64,000 nucleotides of DNA from a virus. Taxonomy: Duplodnaviria; Caudoviricetes. The position numbers and the translations under genes were made by a program. The notes beneath the pieces were generated by a model. The model did no database searches. It had not been told where the DNA came from and saw only the letters and a list, made by a program, of their open reading frames with translations. Of this stretch, positions 3,236 through 38,035 are shown piece by piece; positions within the stretch are counted from its first letter, which is position 1; every line of letters begins with the position of its first letter. The stretch is from the IMG/VR virus record IMGVR_UViG_3300028593_000003; one strand, given 5' to 3'.

Positions 3236-3550
3236 TTATTTCTCAAATGGGTAGAACTGGATGTTACCCGTTGCTCCACTTCCCATATACAGGCTACTGT
3301 AGGCTATGTCCTTTATATACTGTTTTCTTACGAGATATCCTATATACTTGTCATCGTTGAAATTATATCTTCCCTTGTTGTCGGGGTTTTCTTCCAGAAA
3401 TTTCTCTTTTTCTTCAAGGGGGTCAAAGGACTTTATAACCTTGAAAAGACCCATTACGGAATAGTCGGAGTATTCCCCCACATCTATCATCAGTATGGTT
3501 CCCGATTTGCAGATATTCTTGCTTTCTGTAAGGTATCTCTTTATTTTCAT
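3236..3550 (-). CDS. Putative internal virion protein (MKIKRYLTE N-terminus)
   Basis: Late-promoter-like CATAAATA at 3580-3587; N-terminus resembles the T4 capsid-targeting peptide with L-x-E. Confidence 0.55.
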   Translation of the reverse strand: MKIKRYLTESKNICKSGTILMIDVGEYSDYSVMGLFKVIKSFDPLEEKEKFLEENPDNKGRYNFNDDKYIGYLVRKQYIKDIAYSSLYMGSGATGNIQFYPFEK

Positions 3551-3598
3551 TGTTTTCCCCCTGTTTGTGTGTTTTATTGTATTTATGGAAAATGTGTA

Positions 3599-3883
3599 TT
3601 ATTCTATTGTAAACAGTTCGTCCGGTAGACTTGTCGATAAAACATATCCCGATTCGAATGGGTAATAGGGTTTCCAGTTGCAGTACCCTTCCCACTCTTC
3701 TTCTCGGGCTTCCCGTGGTTCTCCCAGTATCTTACCGTTTATCCTTATCCTGACCATACAGAGGGGTTTCTCATTGGAGTTTGGTGCCCAGTAGAGGAAA
3801 AATGTCTTTTTGATATCCTGTACGGAATAGGACATTATGGCTATATTGTGGGGGCTTTTTTCTGTGGCTTCTTTCCAGAGCAT
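3599..3883 (-). CDS. Hypothetical protein, paralog of 4171-4470
   Basis: W.EA..KSPH.IAI and EEW.G...W.PY shared; C-terminal LPDELFTIE. Confidence 0.7.
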   Translation of the reverse strand: MLWKEATEKSPHNIAIMSYSVQDIKKTFFLYWAPNSNEKPLCMVRIRINGKILGEPREAREEEWEGYCNWKPYYPFESGYVLSTSLPDELFTIE

Positions 3884-32149: not shown

Positions 32150-32817
32150 TTTTGCGCCAAAATCGGCTTCACATATTCCTCAATAACCAGTTTTCTCACC
32201 TCAATAAACTCTTCTTTACTTCCAGCAGAAATATCGGTAGGTGAAGAGATGGCGGTAAAGAAAGCATTGGAACAGAGCTGACCGATATAACCGAATTTGT
32301 ACATCTTCAGCCACATCGCCCAATCTGACAAGCGGTGTATTCTGATATCCGTCACGAACCCACCTACCCTCTCTATCGCCTCAGATTTGTAAAGACTATT
32401 GGACGAAATGTAGTTGTTGTTCATCAGGAAGTTTATGTCGTATATTCTTGGCGGAAAGGTGACATTGATGTAACCTTTGTACTCAAATGGGGAATAGACG
32501 AAACCGATGTTACCACCACTTTTTTCTATTGTGGATAACATCTTGTCCAGATAATTTCTACCGAGAATTATGTCACGGTCAAGTATCTGGATGTAAGGTG
32601 GGAATGATTTATACTTTTCTTTGTAGGCGTCCAAATTTGCCTGCACATTAGTCGCGTGCTTTCCTTCTCCTTCATAACTTGTCCAGATAATAGGAACCCC
32701 GCTTCTTTCCAGAGAAATTTTTGTTTGTTTGAAGATTTGATGCCCCGTAAGTAATGGTGTAACTACCAATATTTGTGCGTTTTTATCTTGTCTTAGGATT
32801 TTTAGCATACTTACCAT
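32146..32817 (-). CDS. GT-A/GT2-like glycosyltransferase
   Basis: LDRDI DxD motif, NNYISSNSL, VGGF, DWAMWL. Confidence 0.75.
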   Translation of the reverse strand: MVSMLKILRQDKNAQILVVTPLLTGHQIFKQTKISLERSGVPIIWTSYEGEGKHATNVQANLDAYKEKYKSFPPYIQILDRDIILGRNYLDKMLSTIEKSGGNIGFVYSPFEYKGYINVTFPPRIYDINFLMNNNYISSNSLYKSEAIERVGGFVTDIRIHRLSDWAMWLKMYKFGYIGQLCSNAFFTAISSPTDISAGSKEEFIEVRKLVIEEYVKPILAQK

Positions 32818-33382
32818 CTTTATAATGAGGATTGTTTTTACCTATATTCATTATTCTAAGTTTTTCTATTGTTTCTTCTGAATGATGTTTGCCCGCCATC
32901 GGGGGAATTTGATTTTTTCTTTTCTTCTTCATTTTTTCTACAGCTATGGGATTTTTCATTGGATTATTTTTCTTCATCCATTCGGAGTGTCCGGGCCGTT
33001 TCTTTCCGAAAAAGGCGTGTCTCTCTTTTCTATAATTTTCCTTCCAAGACTTTCTCATCCTTTTTGCAATTTCTTCGTAATCCATTGGATTACTTTCTCC
33101 GCCATCGGTGAGGTTATATCCATTCGGGGAAATAGAGGAAAATTCTTTTACATAAAATTTTTCAAAATAATCAAGTTCCTCTTTTGTATCACAATCCATC
33201 AATTTATACCATAAAAAATTCTCTTCTCCATATTTTCTGATCGCACAATGAAATGGAAGAAGAGAATCTTTCTGAATAGAGCGGGAATGTTCCAATTTCC
33301 TTTTCTCTAATGTTCTTCTCGTTTGACCAATATAAACTTTACCATTTATTCGGTTGGTAACTCTGTAGATGAGTCCTCGCAT
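32783..33382 (-). CDS. Free-standing GIY-YIG homing endonuclease with NUMOD3 repeat
   Basis: GLIYRVTN.INGKVYIGQT, GYNLTDGG, GKHHSEET. Confidence 0.9.
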   Translation of the reverse strand: MRGLIYRVTNRINGKVYIGQTRRTLEKRKLEHSRSIQKDSLLPFHCAIRKYGEENFLWYKLMDCDTKEELDYFEKFYVKEFSSISPNGYNLTDGGESNPMDYEEIAKRMRKSWKENYRKERHAFFGKKRPGHSEWMKKNNPMKNPIAVEKMKKKRKNQIPPMAGKHHSEETIEKLRIMNIGKNNPHYKDGKYAKNPKTR

Positions 33383-34120: not shown

Positions 34121-34900
34121 TTATTTGACTTCCTCGTCTTTTGTGGTCTGAAAGTGCGTTTGAAAAAATTTCTTTTTCTCTTCTTTCTCCTCTTCTCCAT
34201 AAAAACCATCTATTGGTTTTCCATAGAAGTTTGCGGAATATCCCTTTCCGGATTTGATGTCGGCCATATATGATTTTGTAGCGTTGGTCAATGTCACATT
34301 ATACAAACCATTGGCCATTGCACGATTATCAAATTTGTAAGTATTGGAAAGAAACATATCCATTTCTTCTTGGATTTTTTCCGGTTCTGTTCCATAATAA
34401 GTGATTGTCCATCTCTCCGTTTTTTGTAAATCGGAGATCCTTCCCCTGATTTGAGAGAGATTGTATATTCTGGAAGCATTTTCCTGACCGTCTGTGATGA
34501 TGTTTACAAGGAAAGATGTGGTTTTCTCTTCGACATCAGGAAGTTCTTGAAGTTTCGTAAGTGTTTTTCCAATGGCATCGAACAATGCTGTATTTCCATC
34601 TGGAATGTACTCTTTCATATCCAGAGGATTTATATCGGATATACTGTCATCCCATCTCAAGAAATTGATTTTATCGGGATAACTGAAAGTAACAATACTT
34701 ACCTTTGTATCAAGTTGGTCATCCGTTTCGCTTTTGAGGACTTCAAGTTGGTCATTGAAAATGTCCACAACAAACTTCCTCAATACACCCATTGAACCGG
34801 AACTGTCAATTATAAAAGCAACGTGAAGTGTCTTTTTCTTTTTACTGAAAATATCATCTTCAAAATCTTGGAACATTTTGTCTATTTCTTTATCACTCAT
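34121..34900 (-). CDS. vWA-domain protein
   Basis: MIDAS DSSGSM, T.LFDAIG, ITDGQEN. Confidence 0.88.
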   Translation of the reverse strand: MSDKEIDKMFQDFEDDIFSKKKKTLHVAFIIDSSGSMGVLRKFVVDIFNDQLEVLKSETDDQLDTKVSIVTFSYPDKINFLRWDDSISDINPLDMKEYIPDGNTALFDAIGKTLTKLQELPDVEEKTTSFLVNIITDGQENASRIYNLSQIRGRISDLQKTERWTITYYGTEPEKIQEEMDMFLSNTYKFDNRAMANGLYNVTLTNATKSYMADIKSGKGYSANFYGKPIDGFYGEEEKEEKKKFFQTHFQTTKDEEVK

Positions 34901-35105: not shown

Positions 35106-35969
35106 TCATCCTTCCATCTCCTTTTTTATTACCTCTGCCGCATATTCCATCTTGAACTCTGGATAGAACTTGTCTATCCTGTCATAAATGTGAGCTATGT
35201 ATCCGAGATACACATAATCGTAACTTGAAGTGACAAAAATCATATCACTCAAATTCCTGATTATTGTATCGGAAAACAGAGCGTGGTAGTAACGATGTTC
35301 TTCCGGTAATAATATTATAACATTGTTTTCAAGGATTGTAAAGATGTCAGGATTGAGATATCCTATAGAATAGTCACGGGTTGAACCCAATAAAACCGTA
35401 CATTTCATATCGGAATATTTGATATTCTTGTCAAAAACGACATTCAGGTTGGTATATTCATCCACCTTTTCTTTCGAAATGTTCGAATAATCCGAGTATT
35501 TTGTTGAAGAAGTGGGGTAATTCTTGCCAAATTCCACCAAATACTTCTCAAAAGAGCCCAGTTTATCGAAAATAATACCCTTAAAACCGATTGTAAGGGG
35601 TCGCGGCTCGACTTTATTTAGCTTTAGGGTATCTATCGAGTGTATTTTGGGGCAGTAGTGGGGAAAATAGTGAAAATCGGGCCTGTAATTGACGGCCGGC
35701 TCAAACAAAGACACATTGTATTTCTTTAGCCAGCGGGCTTCATCAGGTCTTATCGCAAGAAATTTGTCAAAAATAATGACACGGGTTTTTTTCTTGAGAT
35801 AAAACTTGAGAACTTCAGTTTGAAGTGCGAAAGGTTTCGGATTTGAGGGATTGTAGGGGATGTATTCAATATAAACGGCGTCACAATCAGAAAAATCGGT
35901 ATCTGATAAGGTGACGCCGTTCAATACTTTGTTAAAAACTGGACTACAGTTTAAGGTAAACAATGTCAT
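35106..35969 (-). CDS. Hypothetical protein, possibly GT-B-like
   Basis: 287-aa ORF overlapping the Ro60 stop; alternating beta/alpha pattern; fold assignment is weak. Confidence 0.5.
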   Translation of the reverse strand: MTLFTLNCSPVFNKVLNGVTLSDTDFSDCDAVYIEYIPYNPSNPKPFALQTEVLKFYLKKKTRVIIFDKFLAIRPDEARWLKKYNVSLFEPAVNYRPDFHYFPHYCPKIHSIDTLKLNKVEPRPLTIGFKGIIFDKLGSFEKYLVEFGKNYPTSSTKYSDYSNISKEKVDEYTNLNVVFDKNIKYSDMKCTVLLGSTRDYSIGYLNPDIFTILENNVIILLPEEHRYYHALFSDTIIRNLSDMIFVTSSYDYVYLGYIAHIYDRIDKFYPEFKMEYAAEVIKKEMEG

Positions 35970-37302
35970 TATGGATATTTTTTACAAACTCCTTTTCATA
36001 CTCTATGATGTAGGAGACTACCGCTTCGGAGAAGCCGTCAATATGAACCCAATCACCATAACCCACACCATTACGGTATGAAGCCACATTGATGAGGTAA
36101 TACTGTGCTTCTGGCAGTTTGTTTGGGATCTCGTCGTGAATTTGTTCATCGGTGATGACGATCAGACGATCAAACTTCTCCCTTTCAACAATCGCTTTGA
36201 TTGCTCTACCGAGCCAAGTTCCACCGTGAGGCTGAGAACGAGAAATAGCATTGGCCAAATTAAATCCACGGTGAGCATCGGCAATTTTTCTCACATCTGT
36301 AGAGAATGAGTACACGGAAACATCCTCACAGATTTCTCTTGCGATGAGAGCAACACCATTAGCGGCGTCAATCCTCGTCATATCGGACTTGTCAGAAAGA
36401 GCCATATCCATAGAACCGGAAACATCCACAAGAATTATTGTCTTACCTTCCAAGGTGTCAAGGTTCCTGATGGACTTGAACATCAGGGTTTCAAGCTGGT
36501 TCTTGAACTTTGGAGCATATTTTACTGCCGCAATAAATCTGAAAGGGAGAACCCTGTCAGTTTTCATATTTTCAAGACCACGAAGAATGATGTTCTCATC
36601 CACATTTGCCTGGGTCATATTACGAAGGTTCCTCAAGAGTGCCAGAGCACCAAGGCGGTTCTCCATAATAAGCTCTTCCCAAACAGCTTTCTTGTCCTTA
36701 CCGGCAGAAAGCCCCGTTTCCCAAGTTTTTGGGATTTCCAATTTGTTGTCAATAAGTTTCTTCCAGACATCAGCCTGTGAAGCATTGAGAGGTTTCGCGT
36801 GAGAAAGAAAAAGAACATCTCTCAATTTTACCGAATAGTCACGGTTATATTTGGCGAGCTGGTACTCGTCAAATTTCGTGAAGGCTTTAGCCAGACCTTT
36901 CTTTACCTGTGCGGCAAGAGGGGTCTTACCATCTTTCCAGTAGAGAGAAAGGAACTCCGCCAACTCGTCAGGACGCTGGATTATCCTTCCCAATGTCTTT
37001 GCCACATATTTCCTATGGTCAATATGGCGTACCATTCCCGTAACAAGAAGAAGAGGAACGTGACGCAAATTCATCCTCTCTCTTGCCTCGACAGCAAGAT
37101 TTGCCACGGTCTTACCATTGACTTGTGGAATAGTTGCGAGTATCCTGTCTGCAACGGATGCTCCGTCCTCATAAAAGGACTTTTCCCAAAGCAAGCAGGA
37201 CATCGTTGAACGTCTGAGGATTTGCTCAGGTGTGAGAACCTTTGCAGAACCACCCTCATAGGTTTTAGGAACACGGTTTTTGAAGGAATTATATTTCGCC
37301 AT
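35944..37302 (-). CDS. rsr: Ro60/Rsr TROVE-domain RNA-binding protein with C-terminal vWA
   Basis: TYEGG, LLWE.SFYE.G, LRHVPL, FDEYQLAKY, LRD.LFL.H.KP, TWET.LS, ALLRNLRN, PFRF, DVSGSM, ITDEQ. Confidence 0.93.
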   Translation of the reverse strand: MAKYNSFKNRVPKTYEGGSAKVLTPEQILRRSTMSCLLWEKSFYEDGASVADRILATIPQVNGKTVANLAVEARERMNLRHVPLLLVTGMVRHIDHRKYVAKTLGRIIQRPDELAEFLSLYWKDGKTPLAAQVKKGLAKAFTKFDEYQLAKYNRDYSVKLRDVLFLSHAKPLNASQADVWKKLIDNKLEIPKTWETGLSAGKDKKAVWEELIMENRLGALALLRNLRNMTQANVDENIILRGLENMKTDRVLPFRFIAAVKYAPKFKNQLETLMFKSIRNLDTLEGKTIILVDVSGSMDMALSDKSDMTRIDAANGVALIAREICEDVSVYSFSTDVRKIADAHRGFNLANAISRSQPHGGTWLGRAIKAIVEREKFDRLIVITDEQIHDEIPNKLPEAQYYLINVASYRNGVGYGDWVHIDGFSEAVVSYIIEYEKEFVKNIHNDIVYLKL

Positions 37303-37331
37303 TCTACCAACCTCCTACAAATTATTTTTAA

Positions 37332-37433
37332 ATAACGGGGAACTTGCGAAACCGGAAATTCGGTGGACTTTCACCACCGTGTCGTTGATCACCTAGCATG
37401 GTCGAAGTAACCGACTTCTATCGCCACCGTTAT
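37332..37433 (-). ncRNA. Y-RNA-like unit 1 (~102 nt, 47-nt insert)
   Basis: Terminal stem AUAACGG/CCGUUAU; GGUGGCG and GUUCCCC; 8-bp stem GAAGUCGG/CCGGUUUC; UUACUUCG. Confidence 0.8.
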
Positions 37434-37442
37434 ATTCTGAAA

Positions 37443-37579
37443 AGCGGGGAACAGCCAAACAGAGACTTATATATCCATTTGCTCTGCCATTGAGCTACCG
37501 TCCATTTGGGTTGGACGGGTTAGAATCGAACTAACAACCTAATGGTTCCGACGAAGTAACTCTATTTTACGCCACCGCT
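37443..37579 (-). ncRNA. yrlA: YrlA-like Y RNA with circularly permuted tRNA domain (unit 2)
   Basis: Same scaffold; insert has T arm GUUAG-UUCGAUU-CUAAC, loop-closed acceptor stem CCGUCCA/UGGACGG, D arm GCUC-AAUGGCA-GAGC. Confidence 0.88.
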
Positions 37580-37588
37580 CATATTCGA

Positions 37589-37725
37589 ATGTTGGGGAAC
37601 AATTGTAAACGGCTCTTTTAGGGGTGTTTTCTTCTTCTGGAAAAAACCAATCGAATATTCAGCCCCTCGTTTTCAATTTAGGGAAATTGATTAACCGAAG
37701 TATCCGAATACCGCACCACCAACAT
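37589..37725 (-). ncRNA. Y-RNA-like unit 3 (~137 nt, 83-nt insert)
   Basis: AUGUUGG/CCAACAU terminal stem; GGUGGUG, AUACUUCG, UGUUCCCC; two internal hairpins. Confidence 0.78.
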
Positions 37726-37734
37726 AAATTTTCA

Positions 37735-37987
37735 TTCATCGGGGAACAGATGGAAATGGGGTGGGGATTAGCAATCCCCGAAAGAACATTTACCTCATCC
37801 TGTTCTTCCCACACCGTAAAAGGAACTACTTGCCCAATTTATTTTGTTCCTGTATGTGAGAACGGCTCCAATGAGGGCTTCGGCCCGTAAAGGTCGAATG
37901 TCTGAGCCGCACCATAACCGTGATTATGGTTCGGGCACCCATAATAGTCATCTGTACGAAGTAACCACTTCCGACGCCACCGATGAA
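37735..37987 (-). ncRNA. Y-RNA-like unit 4 (~253 nt, 197-nt multibranch insert)
   Basis: UUCAUCGG/CCGAUGAA terminal stem; GGAAGUGG/CCAUUUCC; UUACUUCG; at least 6 internal helices. Confidence 0.8.
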
Positions 37988-38006
37988 AATATCAAAGAAC
38001 TATGTT

Positions 38007-38035
38007 ATAATAACATATTTACTTATAAATGTAAA
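38007..38035 (-). promoter_or_regulatory. Early promoter for the Y RNA array-rsr operon
   Basis: GTTTACA-17 nt-TATTAT with extended -10 TG, ~20 nt upstream of unit 4. Confidence 0.75.

What the first reader, a model, noticed from the sequence alone, without database searches (positions are those of the whole stretch)
35944..38035. Phage Ro60 operon led by a tandem array of four modular Y-RNA-like ncRNAs (one scaffold, four different cargo domains)
Seen: between a sigma70-like promoter (38007-38035) and the Ro60/TROVE gene lie four units (37735-37987, 37589-37725, 37443-37579, 37332-37433) separated by ~9-nt AT-rich linkers. On the minus strand each reads terminal stem-GGUGGYG-N2/3-8 nt-WUACUUCG-[insert]-8 nt-N3-(U/A)GUUCCCC-terminal stem. 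The terminal stems and the 8-bp upper stems differ in sequence yet stay paired: GGAAGUGG/CCAUUUCC, GUAUUCGG/CCGUUUAC (two U-U), AAAUAGAG/CUCUGUUU, GAAGUCGG/CCGGUUUC. Their G-U pairs only work on the minus strand. The inserts are unrelated, at 197, 83, 87 and 47 nt. Established: bacterial Rsr genes sit next to Y RNA genes, and Y RNAs consist of a Ro-binding stem plus an effector domain (in Deinococcus the RNA tethers Rsr to PNPase). Inference: this is a processed polycistronic cassette of interchangeable RNA adaptors giving one phage Ro60 ring four different partners or decoy functions. I do not recall a four-member variable-cargo array being described in a phage.
Basis: partly seen in the sequence, partly recalled or inferred. 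Interest (0 to 1): 0.93.

Follow-up and report, generated by a model that had tools for sequence, protein, structure and literature searches.

The report
Four Y RNAs ahead of phage Ro60
An uncultured phage encodes four small structured RNAs that share one "handle" but carry different bodies, directly in front of its gene for the RNA-binding ring protein Ro60; this is a real example of the known Ro60/Y-RNA partnership, in a tandem multi-copy form that proved common in phages but that I found described in no paper.

Summary
Four minus-strand units (37735-37987, 37589-37725, 37443-37579, 37332-37433) share one scaffold, are separated by 9-nt linkers, and lie between a sigma70-like promoter and a TROVE+vWA Ro60 gene.

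A covariance model built from short units of other phages finds units 2, 3 and 4. It gave 126 units in 72 Ro60 loci, all on the Ro60 strand, and none in 700 kb of phage DNA without Ro60. Both handle helices covary strongly.

Unit 3 carries a YrlA-type tRNA-like domain. It scores below Rfam's threshold.

Two close relatives keep the same promoter and the same four units in order:
- Unit 1's 197-nt cargo is structured and conserved in one relative.
- Unit 4's hairpin covaries.
- Unit 2's cargo is not conserved.

So "four different partners" is not shown.

Arrays of 2-8 such units are common. Caulobacter phage CcrColossus has 8, Xanthomonas phage Sopo 5 and crAss001 3. Four is therefore ordinary for this class.

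Phage Ro60 with two upstream Y-like RNAs is already published (Thermus phage phiLo), as are co-transcribed YrlA and YrlB. I found no paper on larger arrays. This scan has flagged similar arrays in many other genomes.

Verdict: a new variant of a known kind, of moderate interest.

The parts
38007..38035 (-). Sigma70-like promoter (TTTACA-17-TATTAT, TG before the -10)
   Evidence: The position and both hexamers are conserved in L135 and L136 (TTTACA-17-TAGAAT). Function is inferred.
37735..37987 (-). Y RNA unit 1: handle plus a 197-nt multi-helix cargo (37760-37956)
   Evidence: Full handle with 8/8 upper-stem pairs. Fold z -2.6. The cargo is 80% identical over 154 nt in L135, with 10 compensatory pairs, and is shortened in L136. 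It has no Rfam match. It is too long for model R1.
37726..37734 (-). 9-nt AU-rich linker between units 1 and 2
   Evidence: Linkers of 9-17 nt are typical in related arrays. That it is a cleavage site is inferred.
37589..37725 (-). Y RNA unit 2: handle plus an 83-nt cargo that is not conserved
   Evidence: R1 44.3 bits, E 4e-11, not a seed. The cargo is replaced by about 16-25 nt in L135 and L136. Fold z -1.6.
37580..37588 (-). 9-nt linker between units 2 and 3
37443..37579 (-). Y RNA unit 3: handle plus a YrlA-type permuted tRNA-like domain (37477-37543)
   Evidence: Rfam RF02553 33.7 bits, E 2e-5, model positions 23-85. R1 35.9 bits, E 8e-9, not a seed. The T stem and the acceptor-like stem covary with L135 and L136.
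37434..37442 (-). 9-nt linker between units 3 and 4
37332..37433 (-). Y RNA unit 4: handle plus a 47-nt cargo with one hairpin
   Evidence: R1 57 bits (a seed). The hairpin CGGUGG/CCACCG is replaced by GGCCCC/GGGGCC in L135 and by GGCC/GGCC in L136, at the same place.
37311..37316 (-). AGGAGG ribosome-binding site of Ro60, 15 nt after unit 4
   Evidence: Identical in L135 and L136.
35944..37302 (-). Ro60 gene (452 aa; TROVE + vWA with a DVSGS MIDAS motif)
   Evidence: Pfam PF05731 5e-23. phrog_850 1e-51. Best solved relative is Thermus phage phiLo Ro60, 9KOP/9L5Y, E 9e-27 over residues 12-433. Translation.
35106..35969 (-). 287-aa ORF of unknown family overlapping the Ro60 stop; possibly on the same transcript
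   Evidence: no family. Conserved only in the close relative L136 (72% aa), not in other Ro60 loci.

Best explanation
The locus is a phage Ro60/Y-RNA operon.

- Transcription (inferred): host RNA polymerase starts at the sigma70-like promoter and makes one precursor. It holds four Y RNAs and then the Ro60 mRNA.
- Processing (inferred): the precursor is cut in the short AU-rich linkers and trimmed back to the terminal stems.
- The handle (shown as conserved and covarying): each RNA keeps the same structure. From the ends inward it is a terminal stem, an internal loop with GGUGGYG on the 5' side and UGUUCC on the 3' side, an 8-bp upper stem, and the junction UACUUCG.
- Binding (inferred by homology to YrlA): the handle is the Ro60-binding site.
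- Cargo: the variable body projects from the ring. Unit 3 is a YrlA-type tRNA mimic. Unit 1 carries a lineage-specific 197-nt folded domain. Unit 4 carries one hairpin. Unit 2 carries a fast-changing, possibly neutral insert.
- Function (inferred by analogy with Deinococcus, Salmonella and phage phiLo): the RNAs gate Ro60 and tether it to host factors such as PNPase early in infection. This would redirect RNA decay or quality control.

Which partners are bound, and whether all four cargos matter, is unknown.
For: - Four exact handle motifs against none expected, and the folds recover the handle.
- Model R1, built from 19 short units (18 from other phage loci plus window unit 4), finds the non-seed units 2 and 3 at E 4e-11 and 8e-9.
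- R1 gave 126 hits in 72 Ro60 loci, every one on the Ro60 strand: 105 upstream, with the last unit a median of 58 nt from the gene, and 19 downstream.
- R1 gave 0 hits in 700 kb of phage DNA without Ro60, even though much of that DNA was chosen for matching part of the motif.
- Every motif-anchored locus with a robust full handle has Ro60 next door; the two doubtful 7/8-pair matches with long inserts (L044, L045) do not.
- Covariation on 19 units: 94.4% paired, 14 of 16 pairs with compensatory change, score 0.835 against 0.21 shuffled and 0.10-0.20 slid.
- Covariation on 123 distinct units: 94.1% paired, 16 of 16 pairs, score 0.834 against 0.214 shuffled.
- Unit 3 matches the tRNA-like core of Rfam YrlA. 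In CcrColossus, units match YrlA over the full model length. The YrlA consensus shares GGCGAA and CUUGU with the handle.
- Close relatives L135 and L136 keep the promoter, the unit order and the RBS.
- Published precedents: YrlA and YrlB processed from one precursor upstream of Rsr (PMC4201824); phiLo Ro60 binding Y-like RNAs and host PNPase (PMC12135203); the TROVE gene of crAss001 expressed early (PMC8375218).
Against: - There is no expression, processing or binding data for this phage, and its host is unknown.
- Neither unit 3 nor any of the 20 related loci scanned reaches Rfam's YrlA gathering score of 69 bits.
- The published GNCGAAN0-1G motif is only approximated in the four units.
- Unit 2's cargo is not conserved, and its fold is no better than shuffles (z -1.6). 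Unit 4's fold has z -0.4.
- The R1 seeds were picked by a finder that required at least 7 of 8 upper-stem pairs, and alignment A4 is fitted to the model. Helix 2 statistics are therefore somewhat circular. Helix 1 was not selected for.
- R1's E-values are rough.
- No partner gene is conserved next to Ro60 across loci.
Confidence: 0.8

Rival explanations
1. Redundancy and turnover rather than four adaptors. All units are Ro60 ligands. Only the handle, and perhaps the tRNA-like domain, matter. The array supplies dosage, and duplicated units drift, so most cargos are neutral filler.
For: Unit 2's cargo differs completely between relatives with 80-82% identical Ro60. Unit 1's cargo is about half deleted in L136. 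Array size varies from 1 to 8 among loci. 85 of 124 model-detected units carry no tRNA-like motif and have short, varied loops.
Against: Unit 1's cargo keeps 10 compensatory pairs against L135. Unit 4's hairpin covaries. The four units keep their order and type in three phages.
Confidence: 0.3
2. A cis-acting leader. The array is chiefly a structured 5' untranslated region through which Ro60 autoregulates its own translation or mRNA stability, rather than a source of free RNAs.
For: Unit 4 ends 15 nt before the RBS. The last unit lies a median of 58 nt from Ro60 in 49 loci with upstream arrays.
Against: Seven loci, and also cr106_1, crAss001 and phiLo, have the units downstream of Ro60. In some loci real tRNA genes are interleaved with the units, which points to processed stand-alone RNAs. 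YrlA and YrlB are free RNAs in bacteria (PMC4201824).
Confidence: 0.07
3. The handle is recognised by something other than Ro60, for example a processing enzyme or another phage protein. Linkage to Ro60 would then reflect a shared pathway, not direct binding.
For: No binding data exist. The exact published CGAA motif is absent from the four units. Rfam's YrlA threshold is not reached.
Against: No other gene is conserved beside the arrays across loci. The handle has the Y-RNA plan of a terminal stem, an internal loop and a second stem. It shares GGCGAA and CUUGU with the YrlA consensus.
Confidence: 0.05

Closest known systems
Bacterial Rsr (Ro60) with YrlA and YrlB (Salmonella Typhimurium, Mycobacterium smegmatis; Rfam RF02553; Chen et al. 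2014, PMC4201824)
   Same: The RNAs are encoded within a few hundred nt of Ro60 on the same strand. The 5' and 3' ends pair into a stem with an internal loop carrying a GGCG(A/U)A-type motif. One RNA carries a permuted tRNA-like domain (T arm, closed acceptor-like stem, D arm). A second, non-tRNA-like RNA lies beside it, and both are cut from one precursor upstream of Rsr.
   Different: There are four units instead of two. The handle consensus (GGUGGYG ... UACUUCG ... UGUUCC) does not score on the stem part of the Rfam model, so the match is 33.7 bits against a threshold of 69. Where YrlA has Watson-Crick pairs, the phage handle has mismatches or G-U. Unit 1's 197-nt cargo has no counterpart. 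The context is a phage, not the rsr-rtcBA operon.
Thermus phage phiLo Ro60 with Yrl1 and Yrl2 (PMC12135203; PDB 9KOP, 9L5Y)
   Same: It is a phage-encoded Ro60, and the best solved match to the window protein (E 9e-27). Two Y-like RNAs are reported next to the gene. It forms a complex with host PNPase in vitro.
   Different: The proteins are only about 27% identical. The published Yrls were picked upstream by a CGAA motif and do not match my handle model. Instead, the model hits two units just downstream of phiLo Ro60. There are two RNAs there, not four.
Deinococcus radiodurans Rsr-Yrn1/Yrn2-PNPase (the RYPER machine)
   Same: It is the working model for the mechanism. The Y RNA handle binds the ring, and the other module tethers an exoribonuclease. 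Several Y RNAs are encoded upstream of rsr.
   Different: I found no sequence similarity. PNPase binding is not testable here. Expression there is stress-induced and bacterial, not from a phage operon.
Vertebrate Y RNAs (human Y1, Y3, Y4, Y5) with Ro60
   Same: One Ro60 serves four Y RNAs that share a conserved Ro-binding stem and differ in their loop modules.
   Different: Those are separate RNA polymerase III genes, not one tandem operon. The conserved helix is a different sequence (GGUCCGA type). There was no Rfam Y_RNA match.
Listeria phage CKA15: three abundant RNAs upstream of an Rsr-like gene (PMC12282133)
   Same: Three highly transcribed non-coding regions lie within 2 kb upstream of a phage Ro60-like gene and run in the same direction. 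The authors suggest they are Y RNAs.
   Different: That paper defines no handle or structure. I did not test that locus.

Membership tests
Ro60 / TROVE protein family | TROVE domain above Pfam's threshold | tested here: met
   PF05731 at 82.4 bits against a cut-off of 23, E 5e-23. phrog_850 'RNA-binding protein' at 1e-51.
Ro60 / TROVE protein family | C-terminal vWA domain with a MIDAS motif (DxSxS) | tested here: met
   DVSGS is present in the translation. The Pfam vWA_Ro60 and VWA_2 matches lie just below their cut-offs: 22.8 against 27.7, and 25.8 against 27.
Ro60 / TROVE protein family | Full-length similarity to a Ro60 with a solved ring structure | tested here: met
   phiLo Ro60 (9KOP/9L5Y), E 9e-27, residues 12-433 of 452. 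I did not predict a structure.
Rfam YrlA (RF02553) | Score at or above the gathering threshold (69 bits) | tested here: not met
   Unit 3 scores 33.7 bits, E 2e-5, over model positions 23-85 only. Units 1, 2 and 4 give no match. None of 20 related loci reaches the threshold. The best CcrColossus unit scores 42.3 bits.
Rfam YrlA (RF02553) | Permuted tRNA-like core: T arm, closed acceptor-like stem, D arm | tested here: met
   Met for unit 3 only, which aligns to the YrlA core with GUUCGAUUC and UAGCUCAAUGG. The stems covary with L135 and L136.
Rfam YrlA (RF02553) | GNCGAAN0-1G motif near the 5' end (Chen et al. 2014) | tested here: not met
   At the equivalent place the units read GGCGUCG, GGUGCGG, GGCGUAA and GGCGAUAG. 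Many relatives do read GGCGAAG or GGCGUAG.
Rfam YrlA (RF02553) | Within 4 kb of a Ro60 gene and on the same strand | tested here: met
   All four units lie 30-685 nt upstream of Ro60 on its strand.
Y RNA (functional class) | 5' and 3' ends pair into a stem with a conserved internal loop, and a variable module lies distal to it | tested here: met
   Folds. Covariation of both helices.
Y RNA (functional class) | Bound by Ro60 in vivo or in vitro | not testable with these tools
   This needs RIP, CLIP or EMSA. The only evidence here is the two-way genomic association.
Polycistronic Y-RNA precursor (as M. smegmatis YrlA/YrlB) | One promoter, no internal terminators, discrete processed products | tested here: inconclusive
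   There is one conserved promoter and no terminator-like site in the array. Two weak internal promoter-like sites exist (9/12 matches). The products cannot be tested.

The most novel reading that the evidence does not exclude
Phage Ro60 genes generally travel with an expandable, fast-evolving library of 2-8 Y RNAs. These RNAs share a phage-type handle that current catalogues miss, and each cargo retargets the Ro60 ring or titrates a different host factor. The cargos seen include tRNA mimics, hairpins and new folded domains such as the 197-nt body of unit 1. On this reading the four units here are four functionally distinct adaptors, and the handle model gives the first way to find YrlB-type (non-tRNA-like) Y RNAs by computation.
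Probability: 0.3. Interest if true: 0.72.

Novelty: new variant of a known kind. Interest (0 to 1): 0.55.

Why it matters
Ro60 and Y RNAs are conserved from bacteria to humans and are tied to RNA quality control and lupus autoimmunity. Yet the non-tRNA-like bacterial and phage Y RNAs have, in the words of their discoverers, "eluded bioinformatic discovery" (PMC4201824).

This locus and its relatives define a covarying handle that finds such RNAs specifically beside Ro60. The work shows that phages commonly carry arrays of them, including cultured and tractable phages: CcrColossus on Caulobacter, Sopo on Xanthomonas and crAss001 on Bacteroides.

That makes an open question testable: what do different Y RNA modules recruit, and why do phages bring their own Ro60 particle early in infection? 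The window itself is one ordinary member of that class. Its most individual feature is the unexplained 197-nt cargo of unit 1.

Tried and rejected
- Rfam at gathering thresholds gave nothing on the window. On 20 related loci it gave only true tRNAs.
- blastn of the locus against 50,697 phage records found no match. The UvsX-like neighbour is at most 27% identical to any cultured phage, so phage identity and host stay unknown.
- No whole genome is held for the window.
- Unit 1 cargo:
  - No Rfam match, even at E of 5-10.
  - Its only homologue among all fetched loci is in L135.
  - An exact 24-mer from its core found nothing in IMG/VR.
  - A looser 17-mer found only chance hits in coding DNA.
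- Unit 2 and unit 4 cargos have no homologues beyond the close relatives.
- A motif scan of IMG/VR returned mostly chance matches. Only loci with a full handle proved real, and those all had Ro60.
- I looked for a conserved partner gene next to Ro60. The neighbours are shared only with L135 and L136.
- The published phiLo Yrl region upstream of its Ro60 does not match my model.
- Model R1 cannot span unit 1, because its insert is too long.
- Two reviews (PMC10870794, PMC6542706) and the supplementary tables of Chen et al. 2014 are not held. I therefore could not check whether multi-copy phage arrays are listed there.
- A protein-coding reading of the array is rejected. The differences from L135 are compensatory pairs and indels of 1, 2 and 3 nt.
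Full report
**What is in the sequence**

I read the minus strand. The order is:
- a promoter-like site at 38035-38007 (TTTACA-17-TATTAT, preceded by TG);
- four units at 37987-37735, 37725-37589, 37579-37443 and 37433-37332;
- an AGGAGG site at 37316-37311;
- the ATG of a 452-aa ORF at 37302.

From the ends inward it is a terminal stem (8, 7, 5 and 7 bp), GGUGGYG, 2-3 nt, an 8-nt strand, WUACUUCG, the insert, the complementary 8-nt strand, 3 nt, (U/A)GUUCCCC, and the closing terminal stem. The inserts are 197, 83, 87 and 47 nt, and the three linkers are each 9 nt. The 5' motif pair occurs four times in the window against none in 100 shuffles. Single-sequence folds recover both helices in all four units. 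Their z-scores are modest: -2.6, -1.6, -2.0 and -0.4.

**The gene**

The ORF at 35944-37302(-) is a canonical Ro60:
- TROVE PF05731 at E 5e-23;
- phrog_850 at 1e-51;
- a vWA part with the MIDAS motif DVSGS;
- a full-length match to the solved Ro60 of Thermus phage phiLo, E 9e-27.

A 287-aa ORF of no known family overlaps its stop codon.

**Is the scaffold real beyond this window?**

I fetched 16 IMG/VR loci and 78 metagenome loci that encode relatives of this Ro60. These loci were chosen by the protein, not by the RNA. Their flanks are full of the same motif.

I aligned 19 short-insert units, 18 of them from other phage loci, and wrote down the two helices. On that alignment:
- 94.4% of cells pair;
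- 14 of 16 pairs show compensatory change;
- the covariation score is 0.835, against 0.21 for shuffles (0 of 500 reach it) and 0.10-0.20 when the partner is slid by 1-3 columns.

My unit finder required at least 7 of 8 pairs in the upper stem, so that helix is partly selected. The terminal helix was not selected, and it does as well (92.8% paired, 7 pairs with double changes).

The covariance model R1 built from this alignment finds window units 2 and 3, which were not seeds, at E 4e-11 and 8e-9. Unit 1 exceeds the model's span. Its handle shows in the regex search (8/8 pairs) and in the consensus fold with L135.

**Specificity**

- In 72 Ro60 loci (400 kb), R1 gave 126 hits, every one on the Ro60 strand.
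- 105 of them lie upstream, with the last unit a median of 58 nt from the gene, and 19 lie downstream.
- On those 123 distinct units, 94.1% of cells pair, all 16 pairs have compensatory changes, and the score is 0.834 against 0.214. This alignment is fitted to the model.
- In 82 phage loci without a Ro60 hit (700 kb), R1 gave no hit at E up to 0.01. Most of these loci had been fetched because they match part of the motif.
- Conversely, every motif-anchored locus with a robust full handle has a Ro60 gene beside it; two doubtful 7/8-pair matches with long inserts (L044, L045) do not.

The handle and Ro60 are therefore linked in both directions.

**Relation to known Y RNAs**

Unit 3's insert aligns to the tRNA-like core of Rfam YrlA, that is the T arm, a closed acceptor-like stem and the D arm. 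The match is 33.7 bits, E 2e-5, over model positions 23-85, against a threshold of 69. The same holds for L135 at 39 bits. None of 20 related loci reaches the threshold.

In CcrColossus, two units align over the whole YrlA model, at 42.3 and 29.9 bits. That alignment shows how the handles correspond. The YrlA consensus has CGGCGAAUGC on the 5' side and ACUUGUCGCCG on the 3' side. The phage handle has GGUGGYG(A/U)A and CUUGUUCCCC. Positions that are Watson-Crick pairs in YrlA are mismatches or G-U in the phage handle.

The published GNCGAAN0-1G motif (PMC4201824) is the GGCG-AA-G part of this handle. It is exact in many relatives and only approximate in the four window units. I therefore read the units as working like Y RNAs of the YrlA/YrlB kind. 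I do not file them under RF02553.

**Close relatives and the cargos**

L135 and L136 have Ro60 proteins 82% and 80% identical to the window's. They keep the promoter, four units in the same order, and the RBS.

- Unit 1: its cargo is 80% identical over 154 nt in L135. The consensus fold has 69 pairs, of which 10 are kept through changes on both sides. In L136 about half of the cargo is missing.
- Unit 3: the T stem and the acceptor-like stem covary.
- Unit 4: the hairpin keeps its place while its sequence changes, CGGUGG/CCACCG against GGCCCC/GGGGCC.
- Unit 2: the handle is conserved, but the 83-nt cargo is replaced by about 16-25 unrelated nt.

Three cargos therefore show some constraint and one does not. 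None except unit 3 matches anything in Rfam. Unit 1's cargo has no relative in IMG/VR.

**How common are arrays?**

Related loci hold 0-7 units. Among 27 loci with at least 1 kb of flank on both sides and at least one unit, the counts by default filters, which undercount, are:

| Units in locus | Loci |
|---|---|
| 1 | 5 |
| 2 | 11 |
| 3 | 7 |
| 4 | 2 |
| 5 | 1 |
| 6 | 1 |

Cultured phages show the same architecture:
- Caulobacter phage CcrColossus has 8 contiguous units in front of gp139.
- Brevundimonas phage Gurke has about 6.
- Xanthomonas phage Sopo has 5.
- CcrPW has 5 (L052, identified as CcrPW only by its matching contig length of 308,141 bp).
- crAss001 has 3, downstream of gp96.
- cr106_1 has 2.

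Most model-detected units (85 of 124) carry no tRNA-like motif. In some loci true tRNA genes sit between units. Four units is therefore typical, not exceptional. The 197-nt cargo is the longest I saw attached to a verified handle.

**Literature**

- Chen et al. 2014 (PMC4201824) report YrlA-like RNAs next to Ro60 in 254 bacteria and 22 phages. They describe a second, non-tRNA-like Y RNA per species, and processing of YrlA and YrlB from one precursor. They also suggest that extra Y RNAs widen the range of Ro60 partners.
- The phiLo study (PMC12135203) reports two Y-like RNAs beside a phage Ro60 and a ternary complex with host PNPase.
- A Listeria phage paper (PMC12282133) proposes that three abundant RNAs upstream of an Rsr-like gene are Y RNAs.
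- The crAss001 TROVE gene is expressed within 10 minutes of infection (PMC8375218).
- Five searches of the paper library found no description of larger tandem arrays or of this handle. Two reviews and the 2014 supplement are not held.
- Notes from this scan list many similar arrays in other genomes. I treat them as leads only.

**Mechanism, with its status**

Shown:
- a conserved, covarying handle tied to Ro60;
- a tRNA-mimic cargo in unit 3;
- conserved order, promoter and RBS.

Inferred:
- a single transcript made by host RNA polymerase, hence early expression;
- cleavage in the AU-rich linkers and trimming to the terminal stems;
- Ro60 binding at the internal loop and the UACUUCG junction;
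- cargo-dependent tethering to host factors such as PNPase.

The strong form, four cargos meaning four partners, has about a 0.3 chance in my view, mainly because of unit 2. A purely cis-regulatory leader is unlikely, because arrays also sit downstream of Ro60 and among tRNA genes.

**Verdict**

This is a new variant of the known Ro60/Y-RNA system, and one instance of a widespread, under-described phage architecture. Interest 0.55.

Noticed in passing
L216 (Thermus phage phiLo, MH673673) 3478-3553 and 3669-3758: Two units with the phage handle lie just downstream of phiLo Ro60 on its strand. They have terminal stems, a GUACUUC(U/A) junction and a UUUCC 3' motif. R1 scores them at E 5e-5 and 0.37. 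They overlap the annotated CDS phiLo_25. The published Yrl1 and Yrl2 were chosen upstream by a CGAA motif, and that region does not match the model. The natural Y RNAs of phiLo may be these downstream units.
   Followed up: partly
L213 (CcrColossus) 2173-2240; L218 (Brevundimonas phage Gurke) 2793-2867: An annotated 'tRNA-Gln' and an annotated 'tRNA-Ser' each lie inside a Y-RNA unit (R1 hits at 2163-2339 and 2789-2932). They are probably tRNA-like Y-RNA cargos annotated as tRNA genes.
   Followed up: partly
L136 2683-2876: The close relative L136 has about 200 extra nt between units 3 and 4 that the window and L135 lack. The content is unknown: possibly a small inserted element or a further RNA.
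   Followed up: no
L179 2424-2496, L149 5694-5767, L196 370-437, L151 2317-2400: True tRNA genes above Rfam's threshold are interleaved with Y-RNA units, or abut them, on the same strand. This suggests shared transcription and tRNA-type processing.
   Followed up: no
window 37878-37884 (-): Unit 1's cargo contains GCCGAAG, an exact match to the published Ro60 motif GNCGAAG. It sits in the loop region of a GGGC/GCCC hairpin within a core that is almost invariant between the window and L135 (one change in about 50 nt). It could be a second Ro60 site or a coincidence (chance of about 0.05 for this length).
   Followed up: no
window 37996-38003 (-) and the aligned positions in L135 and L136: An octamer TTCTTTGA just after the -10 hexamer is identical in all three relatives. 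It may mark the transcription start region or a second promoter element.
   Followed up: no
window 32783-33382 (-): A 199-aa ORF matches GIY-YIG-type homing endonuclease families (phrog_314 at 4e-31). It lies a few genes downstream of Ro60.
   Followed up: no
window 34121-34900 (-): A second, stand-alone vWA-domain protein of 259 aa (PF00092 at 1e-4, just below its cut-off; phrog_7371 at 4e-27) lies about 1 kb downstream of Ro60 on the same strand. It is not found in L136.
   Followed up: partly
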